Under the pieces are notes generated by a model that ran no database searches, had not been told where the DNA came from, and worked only from the letters and a program-made list of their open reading frames with translations. This document shows, piece by piece, positions 2,994 through 15,147 of a DNA stretch of 64,000 bases (position 1 is the stretch's first letter; each line of letters opens with the position of its first letter). The position numbers and the translations under genes were made by a program. Origin of the DNA: Phyllobates terribilis (lineage: Eukaryota); contig NW_027362767.1 in the NCBI RefSeq assembly GCF_046119375.1, positions 6,138,001-6,202,000 of the forward strand. The letters are read 5' to 3'.

Positions 2994-3702
2994 TGTAAGC
3001 AGAGAATCTTTCCACTTTCCAGTACTATTAAATTGAGGCATCTCTGAATCTGTACCGAGCACTCTGCCCAGGGGGGTTATGCGACATTAAAGTAAAACCC
3101 CAACCCCCAGAGCAGAAATCAAAATGGCATAACTGTAGAAGAAAAAGACATGGACTACACATCCAAATATTAAGCACTGATCTACTGCAGCAAAGCAAAA
3201 TGATCAGAACTGAACATGAGGTTTTAAGTTACCATTGTGATCAGATTGCATAAGCCCACTGCCATGTCAGAGCAAATCCCTGTAGTAGGTCCCTGCCCTA
3301 TTAGGTGTAGCACTGCACGGGGACCACCGCTGTGACATTGTGCCAGCAGGGCAAGCAACCCAGATGCCCAACAGCACCCAAGCTGCCAAGTCCACACGAC
3401 AGCATCCAATAGGCACAGCAACAATGAGCACCATAAAGCACCAACACCAAATGTACTGATCTGAAAACTCACCTTCCATGGGGTCCCATGTGCCAAACTG
3501 AGGGCGAAATCAGCAGGACCCTTTTTGCAGTCTCTTTTTAAATCACCTGGGCCAAATGAGTAGAGTTCTGGTATGAAGAAAAAAATGGTGACAAACCATA
3601 CAGAATACTATTTGTAGAAAAAAAGACATCCATATATTATAAATTGGTGAATGCCGCACCATGCTAGACCTAATAGCACATGATGTGCCCACTGCAGAGG
3701 TT

Positions 3703-6700
3703 CACCGTGACGTGGCAGTGGGCTTATACACTTGGATCACCGTGACGTGGCAGTAAGATTATACACTTGGATCACCGTGACGTGGCAGTGAGCTTATATA
3801 CTTGGATCACCATGACGTGGCAGTGAGCTTATACACTTGGATCACCGTGACGTGGCTGTGAGCTTATACACTTGGATCACCAGGACTTGGCAGTGGGTTT
3901 ATACACTTGGATCACCGTGACGTGGCAGTAAGATTATACACTTGGATCACCGTGACGTGGCAGTGGGCTTATACACTTGGATCACCGTGACGTGGCAGTG
4001 GGCTTATGCACTTGGATCACCGTGACGTGGCAGTGGGTTTATACACCTGGATCAACGTGACGTGACAGTGGGCTTATACACTTGGATCACCGTGACGTGG
4101 CAGTAAGATTATACACTTGGATCACCGTGACGTGGCAGTGAGCTTATACGCTTGGATCACCGAGACGTGGCAGTGGGCTTATACACTTGGATCACCGGGA
4201 CGTGGCAGTGGGCTTATACACTTGGATCACCAGGACGTTGCAGTGGGTTTATACACTTGGATCACCGTGACGTGGCAGTGAGCTTATACACTTGGATCAC
4301 CGGGACGTGGCAGTGGGCTTTTACACTTGGATCACCAGGACGTGGCAGTGGGCTTATACACTTGGATCACCGTGACGTGGCAGTGGGTTTATACACTTGG
4401 ATCACCAGGACGTGGCAGTGGGTTTATACACTTGGATCACCGTGACGTGGCAGTAAGATTATACACTTGGATCACCGTGACGTGGCTGTGGGCTTATACA
4501 CTTGGATCACCGTGACGTGGCAGTGGGTTTATACACTTGGATCACTGTGACGTGGCAGTAAGATTATACACTTGGATCACCATGACGTGGCAGTGAGCTT
4601 ATACGCTTGGATCACCGGGACGTGGCAGTGGGCTTATACACTTGGATCACCAGGACGTGGCAGTGGGCTTATACACTTGGATCACCAGGACGTGGCAGTG
4701 GGTTTATACACTTGGATCACCGTGACGTGGCAGTAAGATTATACACTTGGATCACCGTGACGTGGCAGTGGGTTTATACACTTGGATCACCAAGACGTGG
4801 CAGTGGGTTTATACACTTGGATCACCGTGACGTGTCAGTAAGATTATACACTTGGATCACCGTGACGTGGCAGTGGGCTTATACACTTGGATCACCGTGA
4901 CGTGGCAGTGGGCTTATACACTTGAATCACCGTGACGTGGCAGTAAGATTATACACTTGGATCACCGTGACGTGGCAGTGAGCTTATATACTTGGATCAC
5001 CATGACGTGGCAGTGAGCTTATACACTTGGATCACCGTGACGTGGCTGTGAGCTTATACACTTGGATCACCAGGACTTGGCAGTGGGTTTATACACTTGG
5101 ATCACCGTGACGTGGCAGTAAGATTATACACTTGGATCACCGTGACGTGGCAGTGGGCTTATACACTTGGATCACCGTGACGTGGCAGTGGGCTTATGCA
5201 CTTGGATCACCGTGACGTGGCAGTGGGTTTATACACCTGGATCAACGTGACGTGACAGTGGGCTTATACACTTGGATCACCGTGACGTGGCAGTAAGATT
5301 ATACACTTGGATCACCGTGACGTGGCAGTGAGCTTATACACTTGGATCACCAGGACGTGGCAGTGGGCTTATACACTTGGATCACCAGGACGTGGCAGTG
5401 GGTTTATACACTTGGATCACCGTGACGTGGCAGTAAGATTATACACTTGGATCACCGTGACGTGGCAGTGGGTTTATACACTTGGATCACCAAGACGTGG
5501 CAGTGGGTTTATACACTTGGATCACCGTGACGTGTCAGTAAGATTATACACTTGGATCACCGTGACGTGGCAGTGGGTTTATACACCTGGATCAACGTGA
5601 CGTGACAGTGGGCTTATACACTTGGATCACCGTGACGTGGCAGTAAGATTATACACTTGGATCACCGTGACGTGGCAGTGAGCTTATACACTTGGATCAC
5701 CAGGACGTGGCAGTGGGCTTATACACTTGGATCACCAGGACGTGGCAGTGGGTTTATACACTTGGATCACCGTGACGTGGCAGTAAGATTATACACTTGG
5801 ATCACCGTGACGTGGCAGTGGGTTTATACACTTGGATCACCAAGACGTGGCAGTGGGTTTATACACTTGGATCACCGTGACGTGTCAGTAAGATTATACA
5901 CTTGGATCACCGTGACGTGGCTGTGGGCTTATACACTTGGATCACCGTGACGTGGCAGTGGGCTTATACACTTGGATCACCGTGACGTGGCAGTAAGATT
6001 ATACACTTGGATCACCGTGACGTGGCAGTGAGCTTATATACTTGGATCACCATGACGTGGCAGTGAGCTTATACACTTGGATCACCGTGACGTGGCTGTG
6101 AGCTTATACACTTGGATCACCAGGACTTGGCAGTGGGTTTATACACTTGGATCACCGTGACGTGGCAGTAAGATTATACACTTGGATCACCGTGACGTGG
6201 CAGTAGGCTTATACACTTGGATCACCGTGACGTGGCAGTGGGCTTATGCACTTGGATCACCGTGACGTGGCAGTGGGTTTATACACCTGGATCAATGTGA
6301 CGTGACAGTGGGCTTATACATTTGGATCACCGTGACGTGGCAGTGGGCTTATACACTTGGATCACCGTGACGTGGCTGTGAGCTTATACACTTGGATCAC
6401 CAGGACTTGGCAGTGGGTTTATACACTTGGATCACCATGACGTGGCAGGAAGATTATACACTTGGATCACCGTGACGTGGCAGTGGGCTTATACACTTGG
6501 ATCACCGTGACGTGGCAGTGGGCTTATGCACTTGGATCACCGTGACGTGGCAGTGGGTTTATACACCTGGATCAACGTGACGTGACAGTGGGCTTATACA
6601 CTTGGATCACCGTGACGTGGCAGTGGGCTTATACACTTGGATCACCGTGACGTGGCAGTGAGCTTATACACTTGGATCACCGGGACGTGGCAGTGGGCTT

Positions 6701-7380
6701 ATACACTTGGATCACCGTGACGTGGCAGTGGGCTTATACACTTGGATCACCGTGACGTGGCTGTGAGCTTATACACTTGGATCACCAGGACTTGGCAGTG
6801 GGTTTATACACTTGGATCACCATGACGTGGCAGGAAGATTATACACTTGGATCACCGTGACGTGGCAGTGGGCTTATACACTTGGATCACCGTGACGTGG
6901 CAGTGGGCTTATGCACTTGGATCACCGTGACGTGGCAGTGGGTTTATACACCTGGATCAACGTGACGTGACAGTGGGCTTATACACTTGGATCACCGTGA
7001 CGTGGCAGTGGGCTTATACACTTGGATCACCGTGACGTGGCAGTGAGCTTATACACTTGGATCACCGGGACGTGGCAGTGGGCTTATACACTTGGATCAC
7101 CGTGACGTGGCAGTGGGCTTATACACTTGGATCACCGTGACGTGGCCGTGAGCTTATACACTTGGATCACCGGGACGTGGCAGTGGGCTTATACACTTGG
7201 ATCACCATGACGTGGTAGTGAGCTTACACACTTGTATCACTGTGACGTGGTAGTGAGCTTACACACTTGGATCACTGTGACGTGGCTGTGAGCTTACACA
7301 CTTGGATCACTGTGACGTGGCAGTGGGTTCATACACTTCGACTACCGTGACGTGGCAGTGGGCTTATACACTTGGATCAC
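3703..7380. repeat. 35-bp minisatellite, 105 units, consensus caccgtgacgtggcagtgggcttatacacttggat
   Basis: First unit starts at 3703 and the last cac starts at 7378 = 3703+105x35. Variation seen is substitution only, and the last few units are more diverged. Confidence 0.99.
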
Positions 7381-7626
7381 ATTATCAACTTAACTCCTAT
7401 GTTAGCTTTGAAAAGGTTACTGAGCTGCAGTAGATCACTGTTAGAGAAACAAGGGAGCAATACAAGAGCAATAGGGTCCTAACCGATAAACCTGTGAGGT
7501 GTTAAAGGATGCTGTAATTGCTCGTCTTATCCGGTTGTGTAAATCACAGAAAGGGTTTGCGCTTTGAAGATAGTATTGCCAGTTGCTGCAACACCAGCAG
7601 GCTGGAGAATCCAATGTACTAGTCAG

Positions 7627-7820
7627 GTAGAAGAAAGAGAGTTGGTAAAACTGCGCTGCTGCTTCTGTATTCACAATGAAGACCCCATGTGCAGTTTCAG
7701 ATCATCCCTGCGGTTTTAATCTCAATGCGTTTCCTCATTAACACACTTCTTCATCAGGAGGGCGACAATAGTTCTCCTGATGAAGCTGCAGCGCAATTTT
7801 ACCAACTGATTTTCTTCTAC
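7627..7820. mobile_element. Fold-back element (39-bp inverted arms) enclosing a hammerhead-like motif; possible Penelope-like element remnant
   Basis: Arms 7627-7665 and 7782-7820 are 34/39 reverse-complement identical. A perfect inner 12-bp inverted repeat cttcatcaggag/ctcctgatgaag lies at 7749-7760 and 7774-7785. Confidence 0.55.
7721..7760 (-). ncRNA. Degenerate minimal type I hammerhead ribozyme-like motif
   Basis: Minus strand reads CTC-CTGATGA-agaagtgtgttaatgag-GAAA-CGCA-TT-GAG. Both core boxes and a 3-bp stem I are present. ACGCAT is one CpG transition from the palindromic ACGCGT helix III. Stem II does not pair, so it is probably inactive. Confidence 0.35.
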
Positions 7821-8035
7821 TTGCAGTAGATCCCTGTATTAGGTTAAGTGCACACTTAGCGTTTTTGATACGTTTTTGCTGTGATTTTCCCGCTCGGAAA
7901 CTCTGCGAAAACGCACCAAAAACGCTCTGCTAGCTATTGCAATGGTAATCCGAATGTGCTGTGCACATGATGCAGAAATTTCCGCTCAGGATTACCATTG
8001 CGAAAAAAAACACAGCATGTCCATTGTGCACGCCC

Positions 8036-8160
8036 TTTCCGCCGCAAATTCGCACCCATTGACTTGAATTGATCCGCAGCAAATCCGCAGGTATAATATT
8101 TATACCCGCGGATTTGCTGCGTTTCAATTAAAGCCAATAGGCGCGAATTCGCGGCAGAAA
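8036..8160. repeat. Near-perfect hairpin, about 61-bp arms with a 3-nt loop
   Basis: gcagcaaatccgcaggtataa-tat-ttatacccgcggatttgctgc (20/21), with pairing continuing outward to tttccgccgc/gcggcagaaa. Confidence 0.9.
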
Positions 8161-8578
8161 CGCGGTGCAGGTGGTACCCAGGTCGGCAGAGGAGGACTAC
8201 TACTCCTCTCATCCGACCACCGCTCCCGCTGATAACAGCGAGAGTGGCTCGGCTGGGGGGGAGTAGTAGTCTGCTCACGTGACCTGATCGCCCACGTGAC
8301 CTCACCGTGGGAACATTCTGAAGAATGTTCCCATGGTGGTGAGCTCAACGGGGCTGATCAGCTGATCTTCAGCTGATGAACCCCAGTGACCTCACTCCTA
8401 CAGCAGCAATGTACACTGACAGGAGTGATTTTACCCATTACCCCACTCGCCACCGCTACAGGGCAGTGGGAAGAGAGAGGCTAAGTGCCAGATTTGGCGC
8501 ATCTTATGAATGCACCATTTCTGGGACTGCTGAGGGGTGATATTAATAGCCATGGAGGAGGCTAGTATTCATGGCACC

Positions 8579-8731
8579 TTCCCTGGCTATTAATATCAGC
8601 CCACACCTGTATGTTTAGCCTTTGCTGTTTAGATTTTATAGGGGGACCCCACGTCAAGTTTTTTCTGTGGTCCCCCTCTAGCCAGTAAAGGCTAAACAAA
8701 CAGCTGTGGGCTGATATTAATAGCCAGGGAA
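8579..8731. repeat. Inverted repeat, 49-bp arms
   Basis: Arms 8579-8627 and 8683-8731 are 46/49 reverse-complement identical. An inner gggggacc/ggtccccc pair lies in the loop. Confidence 0.9.
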
Positions 8732-8840
8732 CATTTTTGGCTAATGGCCCCTTCCCCAACTACTAATATCAGCCCCCAGCGGTCGGCTTTCCCTCTGCTG
8801 GTTATAAAAATGACGCCTTTTTTTTTTTTTTTTAATTTTA

Positions 8841-9401
8841 GGCTCTGTGCCCACGATCCGGACGAAGCAGCGCTTTGGACGCATATTTTTTTGCTGCGTC
8901 CAAAACGTTGCATTCTGTTGAACGCAGGTAAATCCACATGTGTTCACTGAACCATGCATATTTACCGCATTCTATACATTCTAGTGGTCAAATTTATGTT
9001 GCGGAGACTAGCGACTCCACAAGAGAATTTGACATGCTGCGGTCCTGAAAGACGCGTCGAGAGTCAGTGTCCGCGGGTGATTCGCAGCCTCAGATGCACG
9101 CATAGTGGACATGGAATTTCTAGAAATCCCATCCACTATGCTGTAACATCTGGATGCAGCGTCAAACCTGCAGCGGCTCCTGACCATGGCCACGTACCCA
9201 AACTCACCCGCAGCATGTCAATTTCTGTAACGGACACGCTAGTCTTCGCTGCAGATTTTGACCGATTAAAGTGTCATTATATGCGGTAGATTCACATGTA
9301 CCGACAACAAAAGTGCAGCATTAGAACACCGTGTTTTGGACGCAGCAAAAATACGCTGCCTCCAAAGCACTGCTGAGTGCTGATCAGGGGGATGTATCGG
9401 C
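8841..9401. mobile_element. Whole-length palindromic MITE (about 560 bp) nested in the 7842-9922 element
   Basis: Starts tta|ggctctgtgcccac. Mirror pairs include agcagcgctttggacgca...gctgcgtccaaaac, ttgacatgctgcgg/ccgcagcatgtcaa (9029/9208) and a central ttctagaa at about 9121, which matches the midpoint of the two ends. The right terminus is decayed. Confidence 0.7.
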
Positions 9402-10479
9402 TAACGAAACAGCTGTGAGCTGTTAATAATAGCCAGAGAGCATGTTTGCAAATGGCACCTTCCTAGGCTAAAAATAGCAGCTCACAGCTGCCCCAGAAAT
9501 TAAATGAATGGGAATGCTAATGAAGATTGGGTGAATGGAACTTGCTGACACCCAGCTCTTTTGTTTGGTGATGACAAGAGGTCAATCAGACCCTTTTATC
9601 ACCAAACCTAATTGAAGTAAAGTAAAGAGTTAGATAAACACACAGACACAGAGCAAACACTTTATTTGAAATACAACAGACACATTTTTTAATCATTTAA
9701 ATTAACCAATATACTCACCCCAGTTCTCAGGGTAATCCAAGGGTTTAAGCAATGTCCTACCAAATAACTTTATTTAGCTCCAAAAAGCATTCATTGATGT
9801 ACAAAAACGCTTCAAAAACGTGGCAAAACCGCATGTTTTTTTCCGCAGCATTTTTCCTGGCAAGGAGATGCAGAAACTCTCAGGAAATTTCTGCTTCAAA
9901 TCCTGAATGTGCGCACATGGCCTTATATTTAGATGTGCACTCCGTGAATTGTACTACAGTTATAGTAAAAATAGGACTGATATTAACACCAGGGGCCAAA
10001 TAGTTTTGCTTTTGTCCCCCAACTTTCTTCCAGAGGTTTTTGCTTCCCAGCACTAAAGGAGCAGGACCAACCAGAGCTGGGCCCCTCCCTGCACGGTCTG
10101 TCCATACTGTCTGCTTTTGCTTTGGCCTCTTATGTTTGCACACCCCACGGGGTATATGAATTTCTCCCATGTCTCTTCTTCCCGTGCTGAAATGATTGGT
10201 GCTGCCATTGAGAACTCGGCTTTTTGACTTCCAAGATCCTTGAGGTTTCCCCGGTGCGGACTTGGGAGCATCAATAAATCATGGAGTCTCTGAAAATAGA
10301 CCGAGGTCTTGCCGGGAGGTATAAGGAGAGCGCAGAGTCTGTAAGAAGAGAACAGCAGAAGCCCAGCAAGTATTCAGAGCTCACAGACGGACGCACTCCC
10401 TGCTGGCACATTACCAGGGCAGAGACCCTGCAGGACCCTGATGGGAGAATACGGAATAAAAAGTGATTTATCACTAGTT

Positions 10480-10628
10480 CAGGGGTGGACATACCATTAG
10501 TGCAACATGTGCAGCCGCACAGGGGCCCAGGCATAAGGGGGAATTGTGCTTTATGATGAGCTACTGGACTTAAAATGGCTCATATATTGTTCTTGCACAG
10601 GGGCCTCTTCTGTCTGTGTCTGCTGGTG
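10480..10628 (+). mobile_element. hAT-type MITE, family A, copy 2 (149 bp)
   Basis: caggggtggaca ... tgtctgctggtg, with flanks cactagtt/cactaggt (7/8 TSD) and the same internal motifs as copies 1 and 3. Confidence 0.85.
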
Positions 10629-11129
10629 CACTAGGTAAGAATCTGCTGACACAATGAGGACAGTAACGCCCGGTCATCTGCAGATCGTGCTCCCAGCGCT
10701 GCCTGCGTCTTGTGCTGTCACAATGTCACAGATGTTCCACCGTCCTGATTATTATATCTCCTTCAGACCGTGGATGTGACACTTCTGTGCCGGTGTCCAG
10801 GAGCAGCGCTCGTGTCTGCAGCTGCAGATTTATAAGATTCTCACCGAGAAGGAAAGAAGACAATTAGGGCAACAATTTATATCGGAAAAGCAAAGGAAAC
10901 CGCCGTAAATTGTGCAAATAAAAGGACAAGGGATCCAATCCCGGGATTATTTCCTTCAAATTTATGTTGTTTGGTTTATGGGAAAATCCATAGCTGACAG
11001 AATTACATCAAATCCTCCCCGCACCACCCAAACTGAGACCCCACAAGCCGCGGATGTCTCATGACTTGTCTGGACTGTCACAAATACAGTCGCAGACTAA
11101 AACTGTCTACATAATGTGTATAGTGCACT

Positions 11130-11590
11130 GCTGTATCTAAGCCTATCTGTGTTATACTGTCTGCAGAGCCATATATCTAAGCCTATCCTGTGTGATACTG
11201 TCTGCTGAGCTGTGTATCTAATCCTATCCTGTGTGATACCATCTGCTGAGCCGTGTATCTAATCCTATCCTGTGTGATACTGTCTGCTGAGCCGTGTATC
11301 TAATCCTATCCTGTGTGATACTGTCTGCTGAGCCGTGTATCTAATCCTCTCCTGTGTGATACTGTCTGCTGAGCCGTGTATCTAATCCTATCCTGTGTGA
11401 TACTGTCTGCTGAGCTGTGTATCTAATCCTCTCCTGTGTGATACTGACTGAGCCGTGTATCTAATCCTATCCTGTGTGATACTGTCTGCTGAGCCGTGTA
11501 TCTAATCCTATCCTGTGTGATACTGTCTGCTGAGCCATGTATCTAATCCTATCCTGTGTGATACCATCTGCTGAGCCGTGTATCTAAGCC
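11130..11590. repeat. 41-bp minisatellite, about 11.5 units, consensus ctgagccgtgtatctaatcctatcctgtgtgatactgtctg
   Basis: Twelve tatctaa anchors at about 41-bp spacing, with occasional 38-40 bp variants. Confidence 0.97.
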
Positions 11591-11597
11591 AGTGTAT

Positions 11598-11733
11598 TAG
11601 CGGTGCACGTTAGAGGGTGCAGAGGTGCTGGTGGCCCCCAGCCGCTCTGTCACATAGGTTCCACTATTGTGGTGGTTGGTGGGGTCTCTTACAGAATTTG
11701 CAGTGGTGCCCGGGGCTGACCCTTACACCTCTG
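11598..11733 (+). mobile_element. hAT-type MITE, family B (136 bp), decayed
   Basis: Left end tagcggtgcac versus right end ttacacctctg (7/11 inverted), with flanks cagtgtat/tagtgtac (6/8 TSD). Confidence 0.5.
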
Positions 11734-12222
11734 TAGTGTACCTAAGCCGTTTAGCTACATGAGGGCACATTTTTGGTGATGAGACCATGCTGCGCTGTAT
11801 AATCTGCAGAGCAGGGAGTTTGCAGCAGTTGGATGGGAGCGGATGCGTTGTCAGGTTGTGTGTGGCGGATCGCGCCTCCTGATGAATACGCTTGGTTAAC
11901 ATATGCAAATGACAAATCAAAGGAAAGTGGAATCTGCAAAAAGAGAAAGAAAAACCTTTTCTTCTGCACTGATGAGACAAAGTATGAATGATGGCAGGCA
12001 CGGCGTCAGCAGCAGCTTTGTCTCACCCGGGCTGCTGCCCAGACAGGCGGATGATGGGGGCGCGGGGGTCTTACAGGTGACACTGGATCTGGAGTAGGAT
12101 TATCCTTGCACCTGCATTACAGGACTTCTTTAATATCCAGATTCTGGAGGAAAGAGCGGCACTACTGCCCCTGAAGTGTACGAGCTCGAGGAAAGGACCA
12201 CAGTCCTGCCTTCATGTAGGCG

Positions 12223-12561
12223 AAAACCTCAGCACCCAAATGATGATGGAGAACGAAGATCCATGATGCAATAAGTGAATATTATATTTTAATCCGGCAA
12301 GAAAAGGCCCAACATTTCGACCAATAACCGTCTTTATCAAGGACATAATAGGCATAAATCAGATTAGGACGAAAGAACCAGCAGAATTGGCAAAAGAAAC
12401 CATCATGTAGTTGATTGCATGGAGGTATGGGGAGCGGAGACTTGTGGAGCAGCCGGGTTTCGGGTAGATGTAGCAGTGTCCTGCCCTTTGCATATTATTA
12501 TAATATTCAATTATCGCATCAAAATCTTCGTTCTCCATCATCATGTCGGCGCTGAGGTTTT
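12223..12561. mobile_element. Fold-back element (about 64-bp inverted arms) enclosing a hammerhead-like motif; possible Penelope-like element remnant
   Basis: Arm 12223-12286 (aaaacctcagcacccaaatgatgatggagaacgaagat...gaatattata) is mirrored at 12499-12561. Confidence 0.6.
12307..12344 (-). ncRNA. Minimal type I hammerhead ribozyme-like motif, U3-A8 core variant
   Basis: Minus strand reads GTCC-TTGATAA-A-GAC-ggttattg-GTC-GAAA-TG-TT-GGGC. Stem I is GTCC/GGGC and stem II is GAC/GTC. The C3-G8 pair is replaced by U3-A8, and helix III ATGT is one CpG transition from the palindrome ACGT. Confidence 0.55.
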
Positions 12562-13251
12562 TTGGACTTCTTCAAAATCGAATCATTGGACTTCTGTAAA
12601 GTTCCAGCTATTTTTTGGTTGTGTCTATTCAGGGGAAACTTGGGTGATATGTAATATGGCCGCAATGACAGTGACCGCAGGGGTTGTCACCTAGTATGCC
12701 CAGAGACCTCACTATGTACGGAAGGCCCCGCTGATCCTTACTTTATCCAAAGCCCCCAGGGCCTGCAGCCATATTCCTTGGTTTATTGATTGGGCAGTGT
12801 TATGTTGGCGTGGTATGACTGTATATGTGATATATAGTGAACCGTAAGGCAGAGGGGGCATCAAAAAAGGTACTGCACAGGCAAGCACCACCCTCATACC
12901 AGCCTGGGGTCCTAAACAACAAATCTACATAGGAATGTAGCAGTGCCTCCCCTACAAATAAACCAGAAAAATTAGGGGTGTCATTTTACAGAGTCTCCTA
13001 AAACTGCATTACTACATCACAAAAAAATACTCTGTGCCGACACTTCAGCTACATATAGGTTGTCACTCAGCTTTCCTAGAGCCCTGATGGTCCTTTGTGT
13101 GCCAATTTACCTACTCAGGCCACAATAGGATTGAATTGGTGTATTCTGATATCCTGCCACTAGAGAGCACCAGATACACATACTCTAATGGAGAGCTGGA
13201 ACTCATCAGGATGCATTTTATTTTCCTCTTTGCCCTGAGCTTATTGCTCCC

Positions 13252-15038: not shown

Positions 15039-15147
15039 CAAAATGAACAAGTAGCAAATGATACAATAGAAAACGCTCAAAAGCCGTGACCGCAGCTCCG
15101 GGTGAAAGATGAGTTCTAAGTTCATCCTAAATGCCCTGTTTTCTCTC

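What the first reader, a model, noticed from the sequence alone, without database searches (positions are those of the whole stretch)
7627..12561. Same architecture twice with unrelated sequence: inverted arms around a minimal hammerhead, no coding capacity
The 194-bp and 339-bp units share no obvious primary sequence. Both are fold-backs whose loop holds a minus-strand minimal type I hammerhead with an extra A after the first core box, a CpG-decayed palindromic helix III and U at the cleavage position. This suggests a class of tiny non-autonomous ribozyme-bearing retroelements, either Penelope-mobilised or retrozyme-like, whose RNA would fold into a long stem. It is the best candidate here for an undescribed system, but it rests on two decayed examples.
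Basis: inference. Interest (0 to 1): 0.7.

Follow-up and report, generated by a model that had tools for sequence, protein, structure and literature searches.

The report
Head-to-head Penelope leader retrocopies
The two mirror-image units are old, decayed members of two repeat families that carry the hallmarks of Penelope-type jumping genes, and one is a precisely spliced copy, so they are likely short by-products copied from the front end of such a gene's RNA rather than a new class of ribozyme element.

Summary
The arms and hammerhead boxes are real, but the units were drawn too small. Target-site duplications of 16 bp bound 7442-7821 (U1) and 12138-12563 (U2). Each is one copy of an old dispersed family (43 and 38 loci sampled). 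52 of these 81 loci are head-to-head pairs of part-copies. All 36 pairs with two classifiable outer ends join one short and one long 3' end, the Penelope-like element (PLE) 'tail'. The hammerhead usually lies in the arms; it is in the loop here only because the inverted arm is deleted or short. U2 is a spliced copy: unspliced relatives show two GT-AG introns. An intact RT + GIY-YIG family in the same genome has the same leader layout and has left the same spliced, ORF-less copy. Best reading: cDNAs of a PLE mRNA leader, likely primed at both internal start sites. No young copies, no tandem dimers, no sign of self-propagating sub-lineages; not retrozymes. No ORF partner was found for U1. An unreviewed note of this scan reached a similar sense-template reading on other DNA. 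Known kind, with a useful mechanistic footprint.

The parts
7442..7821 (.). U1 insertion, whole (380 bp): long direct arm on -, short inverted arm on +
   Evidence: bounded by TSD; family mapping
7426..7441 (+). U1 target-site duplication, left copy (16 bp)
   Evidence: 15 of 16 identical to 7822-7837; score 13, null maximum 7 of 200
7822..7837 (+). U1 target-site duplication, right copy
7442..7622 (-).
   Evidence: arm ends fall at S in 30 and at L in 34 of 75 arms
7623..7771 (-). U1 direct arm from the fixed 5' end to S
   Evidence: 55 of 75 arms start within the first 20 positions of the unit
7721..7760 (-). U1 minimal type I hammerhead, C3-G8 core, extra A, helix II broken in this copy, cleavage U at 7724
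   Evidence: up to 6 bp of helix II in other copies
7772..7821 (+). U1 inverted arm ending at S; about 80 nt with most of its own hammerhead deleted between 7786 and 7787
   Evidence: maps to unit positions 17-31 and 115-156
12138..12563 (.). U2 insertion, whole (426 bp)
   Evidence: bounded by TSD; family mapping
12122..12137 (+). U2 target-site duplication, left copy (16 bp)
   Evidence: 14 of 16 identical to 12564-12579
12564..12579 (+). U2 target-site duplication, right copy
12442..12479 (-). U2 leader exon 1, starting at the family's fixed 5' end (inferred transcription start)
   Evidence: followed by a GT intron of about 295 nt in unspliced copies L197 and L200; 31 of 58 arms start here
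12347..12441 (-). U2 leader exon 2
   Evidence: flanked by AG and GT in L197 and L201; skipped with one shared junction in 18 arms
12138..12346 (-). U2 exon 3: hammerhead, S end at about 12215, tail 12138-12214 to the L end
   Evidence: preceded by AG in L030, L197, L200, L254; arm ends at S in 27 and at L in 24 of 58 arms
12309..12344 (-). U2 minimal type I hammerhead, U3-A8 core variant, extra A, cleavage U at 12311; core starts 6 nt after the splice junction
12480..12498 (.). junction filler between the two arms, not in the family unit
12499..12563 (+). U2 inverted arm ending at S, stopping short of the hammerhead
   Evidence: maps to unit positions 205-270

Best explanation
Both units are old, ORF-less insertions with Penelope-like hallmarks (minimal hammerhead, head-to-head arms, one short and one long 3' end, 16-bp target duplication), U2 is a spliced copy, and they were likely made when a Penelope-like reverse transcriptase copied only the 5' leader of its own kind of mRNA. 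Shown: boundaries, two 3' ends, short-long pairing, fixed 5' ends, GT-AG splicing in U2, and the same spliced ORF-less product from an intact RT + GIY-YIG family in this genome. Inferred: the GIY-YIG nuclease nicks both strands about 15 bp apart. One nick primes at the long start site and the other at the short start site of one sense-strand RNA. Both cDNAs run toward the RNA's 5' end and are joined head to head. The fold-back is a product of insertion, and the copies have since decayed without function.
For: Families: 92 and 51 matches among 40 and 39 scored candidates; 43 and 38 non-redundant loci. Head-to-head in 32 of 43 and 20 of 38 loci; 36 of these 52 have both outer ends classifiable and all 36 are short + long (p 1.5e-11 against a coin toss). 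TSD score of 8 or more in 15 of 32 and 8 of 20 head-to-head loci, lengths 8-20, median 15; 0 of 200 random positions reach 8. Splicing: two GT-AG introns in unspliced U2 copies. Of 48 arms examined, 25 have the exon 2-3 junction, 18 the exon 1-3 junction, 3 keep intron 2 and 2 are unclear; both arms carry the same form in 8 of 8 fully typed pairs, 7 of them spliced. ORF links for U2: a PLE N-terminal remnant (E 1e-22) between U2 arms in L254; a decayed RT + GIY-YIG ORF with an inverted U2-like tail (68%, E 2.5e-10) in L236; pLTRs of L270 65% alike. Positive controls: the family of L238 (799 aa; RVT_1, GIY-YIG) has the same leader layout and two 3' ends, and 1 of 30 of its loci (L308) is a three-exon spliced, ORF-less leader copy. 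The family of L097 also makes short-long head-to-head pairs. Papers: PMC11167929 (both strands cut and extended, two internal start sites), PMC3846280 and PMC8557442 (inverted pLTR, one-sided tail), PMC4209133 (the hammerhead type).
Against: No ORF partner for U1: none in its 43 loci and no U1 sequence in about 155 PLE-containing loci; its splicing is not shown. The direct U2-ORF link rests on one rearranged locus with only an N-terminal remnant, whose DNA has no second match. ORF-less copies dominate U1 and U2, whereas ORF-linked copies dominate the family of L097 and spliced leader copies are rare in the family of L238 (1 of 30). The transcription start is inferred from the fixed 5' end only. 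The S and L windows were set after seeing the two peaks; 16 of 52 pairs could not be classified. Searches score only the best 40 candidates, and the first two queries held both arms.
Confidence: 0.8

Rival explanations
1. U1 and U2 are true non-autonomous, SINE-like families: ORF-less masters were transcribed from an internal promoter and were mobilised in trans by Penelope-like proteins over several generations.
For: None of the 81 mapped loci has a GIY-YIG ORF running into the unit; fixed 5' ends; no U1 partner found. D. virilis Penelope has an internal promoter (PMC2377424, passages), so a leader copy could be transcribed again.
Against: U2 splice forms do not cluster on a tree of exon 3 (19 changes against a shuffled mean of 19.8), as expected if each copy was spliced anew from one master, but the tree is star-like and weak. 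Unspliced and ORF-flanking U2 copies exist. An autonomous family makes the same product.
Confidence: 0.25
2. The inverted arm is made by fold-back self-priming (of the cDNA, or on an antisense template as proposed in PMC3846280), not by a second priming event on the RNA.
For: Arms within a locus are more alike than between loci (U1 0.90 against 0.82, n 11; U2 0.86 against 0.82, n 9) and share the splice form; some centres are short palindromes.
Against: Spliced arms require a sense-strand RNA at some step, which argues against an unspliced antisense template. Fold-back gives no reason to stop at S, and single arms end at S on their own (4 U1, 10 U2). Both strands are extended in vitro (PMC11167929). 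cDNA fold-back is not excluded.
Confidence: 0.2
3. They are non-LTR retrozymes that spread through circular RNA.
For: Unit size of about 345 nt and a type I hammerhead; frog retrozymes are related to pLTRs and leave monomers (bioRxiv 10.64898/2026.07.22.740005).
Against: No head-to-tail dimer among 81 loci (one partial same-strand overlap); unit ends are S/L and a fixed 5' end, not the hammerhead cut site; spliced exons; no young copies.
Confidence: 0.04
4. They are MITE-like DNA elements or chance fold-backs around chance motifs.
For: Short, non-coding, inverted arms; the permissive motif count is at chance level.
Against: Arms are not terminal and vary in length; the duplications are 8-20 bp long; introns were removed; the motif is family-wide.
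Confidence: 0.01

Closest known systems
EN+ Penelope-like element insertions with inverted pLTR, tail and TSD (PMC3846280, passages; PMC8557442, passages, fig. 2 legend)
   Same: Head-to-head inverted part-copy at the 5' end, tail on one end only, target duplication, solo pLTRs.
   Different: No ORF in these copies; tails of about 75 and 180 nt instead of 30-40; duplications of about 15 bp instead of 8-10; fixed rather than random 5' ends; most typed U2 arms have lost their introns.
Minimal hammerheads of metazoan PLEs (PMC4209133, parts 1-2 of 4 read)
   Same: Extra nucleotide between 9 and 10.1, palindromic helix III, U3-A8 variant, mostly ORF-less dispersed copies (about 9,000 in X. tropicalis), pairs 100-700 bp apart on opposite strands, intron ending at helix I in D. 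virilis.
   Different: The paper calls such copies probably truncated PLEs and does not dissect ends, duplications or splice forms in the parts read.
Poseidon of Anolis (PAc) in vitro mechanism (PMC11167929, parts 1-2 of 4 read)
   Same: Two internal RT start sites that define the tail; both strands cut and extended; AT-rich targets (duplications here 66% A+T).
   Different: The ORF-bearing relatives of U2 carry the Cys linker of the Neptune/Nematis type (PMC8557442). Strict short-long pairing and spliced leader copies are not described in the parts read.
Non-LTR retrozymes (PMC7229834, passages; bioRxiv 10.64898/2026.07.22.740005, part 1 of 5 and passages)
   Same: Small, non-coding, type I hammerhead, related to pLTRs.
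   Different: Retrozymes are head-to-tail tandem repeats processed to circles; these are head-to-head, bounded by PLE start sites, and spliced.

Membership tests
EN+ Penelope-like element (derived copy) | Minimal type I hammerhead in the pLTR | tested here: met
   Both core boxes intact in 20 of 54 (U1) and 19 of 48 (U2) arms that span the motif; also helix II of 4 bp or more and the palindrome in 3 and 9
EN+ Penelope-like element (derived copy) | Inverted 5' part-copy, head to head | tested here: met
   32 of 43 and 20 of 38 loci
EN+ Penelope-like element (derived copy) | Two 3' ends, tail on one end only | tested here: met
   36 of 36 classifiable pairs short + long; 16 of 52 not classifiable
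EN+ Penelope-like element (derived copy) | Target-site duplication | tested here: met
   16 bp at both window copies; 23 of 52 head-to-head loci
EN+ Penelope-like element (derived copy) | Spliceosomal intron in the 5' leader, retained in some copies | tested here: met
   U2 only; for U1 no unspliced form among 11 single-arm loci
EN+ Penelope-like element (derived copy) | Linked RT + GIY-YIG ORF | tested here: inconclusive
   U2: one N-terminal remnant between arms and two ORF-bearing sister families. U1: none found
EN+ Penelope-like element (derived copy) | Hammerhead self-cleavage and mobilisation by the PLE protein | not testable with these tools
   needs bench work
Non-LTR retrozyme | Head-to-tail tandem units, each with a hammerhead | tested here: not met
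   0 full dimers in 81 loci
Non-LTR retrozyme | Circular RNA of unit length | not testable with these tools
   no raw RNA reads were available for this stretch
MITE | Constant terminal inverted repeats | tested here: not met
   shorter arm 34-165 nt (U1) and 27-268 nt (U2); tail outside the arms
Already named repeat family (Repbase, Dfam) | Match to a library consensus | not testable with these tools
   no such library is held

The most novel reading that the evidence does not exclude
Penelope-like elements routinely spawn a SINE-like class of spliced leader retrocopies because their RT starts inside the RNA. Every two-armed insertion records twin priming on a single sense-strand RNA, one nick at each start site. 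In U1 and U2 these copies went on to spread without their own ORF. That would settle from genome data the sense-versus-antisense template question left open in PMC3846280 and reinterpret many 'truncated' minimal-hammerhead copies in amphibian genomes.
Probability: 0.35. Interest if true: 0.6.

Novelty: new member of a known kind. Interest (0 to 1): 0.33.

Why it matters
As a proposed new class of ribozyme element it does not stand. What is useful is the footprint. PLEs are known for keeping introns, and their inverted ends were explained by self-priming on an antisense template. Here both arms of single insertions are spliced in the same way, and every classifiable pair joins a short and a long end across a duplication of about 15 bp. 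That fits the 2024 in vitro result and makes a one-RNA, two-primer model testable by counting in any frog-sized genome. It also warns annotators that such units look like MITEs or hairpin RNAs and that the visible arms understate the boundaries.

Tried and rejected
Rfam scan: no hammerhead family hit, three weak miRNA-like hits elsewhere. A GIY-YIG remnant beside U2 copy L007 belongs to another PLE family, not to U2. Widely spaced arms in L061, L062 and L066 hold no PLE ORF. tblastn of 150 PLE proteins found no coding similarity in the U1 or U2 units. A stretch shared upstream of L035 and L053 is an unrelated repeat. Exact-pattern search for young copies: 0 matches for a 30-mer of U2 and 2 for a 32-mer of U1 in 10.6 Gb. 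The exon-2-less form was first read as a deletion subfamily and rejected once GT-AG introns were found. Folding the isolated hammerheads gave no signal over shuffles (z -0.2 to -0.9), as expected for a minimal motif. Tree of splice forms: no clustering, low power. Sequencing runs: no RNA holder listed. Literature searches listed no paper on spliced PLE leader retrocopies or strict short-long pairing; subscription journals are mostly missing and no supplements were read, so repeat libraries or supplementary figures (for example fig. S2 of PMC11167929 and the tables of the 2026 preprint) may already show them.
Full report
Setting. The window lies in a 10.6-Gb genome of 9,343 contigs; I take it for an amphibian from the look of its repeats (recalled, not tested). 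Most of the window is satellite DNA. The finding covers two short units in the non-satellite part, here U1 (near 7700) and U2 (near 12300).

Observation. The arms and the two minus-strand hammerhead-like motifs are there. A permissive pattern matches only these two places in the window, but two matches are what shuffles give (mean 1.65); a stricter pattern written afterwards is above chance (0 of 300 shuffles reach 2). Rfam has no hit. The two units share no sequence.

Families and true ends. Each unit is one copy of a dispersed family: 92 matches among 40 scored candidates for U2 and 51 among 39 for U1, with more from queries that held no inverted arm. After dropping duplicate loci I mapped 43 U1 and 38 U2 loci; median identity of the longer pieces to the unit model is 83% and 89%. 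Arms end at one of two places, short (S) or long (L): 30 and 34 of 75 U1 arms, 27 and 24 of 58 U2 arms. They start at a fixed place in 55 of 75 and 31 of 58. 32 and 20 loci are head-to-head pairs; of these 52, 36 have two classifiable outer ends and all 36 are S + L. Duplications scoring 8 or more flank 23 of the 52 pairs and 2 of 29 single arms, median 15 bp; none of 200 random positions scored 8. An earlier null that did not exclude tandem repeats had a long upper tail. The hammerhead lies in both arms of 23 of 52 pairs. In the window it sits in the loop because U1's inverted arm lost about 80 nt and U2's stops short. Exact patterns found 0 and 2 undecayed motifs in the genome, so both families are old.

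U2 is spliced. Eighteen arms lack the same 87 nt at one shared junction. Two loci had other sequence ending in AG before the hammerhead or close to it. A search with that sequence returned unspliced copies with exon 1, a GT-AG intron of about 295 nt, exon 2, a GT-AG intron of about 285 nt and exon 3 with the hammerhead. The window copy is exon 1-2-3 spliced. In 8 of 8 pairs with both arms typed the arms have the same form, 7 spliced and 1 intron-keeping; 2 more pairs had one unclear arm. Splice forms are not clustered on a weak, star-like tree.

Link to Penelope-like ORFs. The genome holds many RT + GIY-YIG families. One U2 locus has a PLE N-terminal remnant between its arms; that DNA has no second match. 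A decayed RT + GIY-YIG ORF carries an inverted tail 68% like U2, and the two pLTRs of another copy are 65% like U2's intron 2 and hammerhead. The young family of L238 (799 aa; RVT_1 just under and GIY-YIG above the Pfam cut-off, Cys linker) has the same plan: a 5' boundary about 720 nt before the hammerhead, short exons, AG just before helix I, the U3-A8 core, and ends at about +131 and +203. One of its 30 sampled loci is a three-exon spliced leader copy with no ORF. The family of L097 gives S + L head-to-head pairs too, and a recurrent 5' boundary. For U1 no ORF and no unspliced form was found; both protein queries were of one PLE type, so a partner of another type would have been missed.

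Mechanism. Shown: the anatomy above. From PMC11167929 (parts 1-2 of 4 read): a PLE protein cuts and extends both target strands and starts at two internal sites that define the tail. Inferred: when those sites are used in the leader near the mRNA's 5' end, the cDNA is short and ends at the transcription start. One nick primes at L and the other at S on the same RNA, which gives two arms of one splice form, head to head, between duplications of about 15 bp. Fold-back of the first cDNA gives the same picture and is not excluded. An unspliced antisense template (PMC3846280, passages) cannot give spliced arms. Whether U1 and U2 copies were copied again as non-autonomous masters is open.

Comparison. 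Inverted pLTRs, one-sided tails and solo pLTRs are described (PMC3846280; PMC8557442, passages). So are minimal hammerheads with the extra nucleotide, the U3-A8 variant, opposite-strand pairs 100-700 bp apart and an intron ending at helix I (PMC4209133, parts 1-2 of 4), a leader intron and internal promoter (PMC2377424, passages), non-autonomous PLEs (PMC8557442) and pLTR-derived retrozymes (PMC7229834, passages; bioRxiv 10.64898/2026.07.22.740005, part 1 of 5 and passages). Four searches listed nothing on spliced leader retrocopies or strict S + L pairing; supplements and repeat libraries were not seen. An unreviewed note of this scan (e1-10606534), read after my reading was formed, argues for a sense-strand template from a palindrome in another animal; I did not check it.

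Verdict. Two new members of a known kind: decayed ORF-less Penelope-like insertions. The proposed new class is not supported. The splicing and end-pairing data are a modest, testable contribution to how these elements copy themselves. Interest 0.33.

Noticed in passing
window 7842-9923: A 2.1-kb element between the two units with short terminal inverted repeats flanked by TTA on both sides and several nested hairpins; looks like a PIF/Harbinger-type non-autonomous element (label recalled).
   Followed up: partly
window 15147-64000: A 44/90-bp satellite starts at 15147 (tandem scan run to 18000 only); uniform composition with strong strand skew continues to the end of the window.
   Followed up: no
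window 3702-7380 and 11132-11587: Tandem arrays of 35 bp (105 copies) and 41 bp (11 copies).
   Followed up: no
L238, L242, L243, L244, L245, L246, L247 (G000): At least several distinct Penelope-like families with open frames of 799-862 codons and near-identical copies, so likely recently active; hammerhead cores vary among them.
   Followed up: partly
L106-L133 (G000): In the family of L097 about 20 of 30 loci share one 5' boundary 841 nt before the hammerhead, inside the endonuclease-coding region: a recurrent 1-kb RT-less unit.
   Followed up: partly
G000:C9:379.92-379.96 Mb (L224-L231): A head-to-tail array of at least seven copies of the 799-codon family at about 4.7-kb spacing.
   Followed up: no
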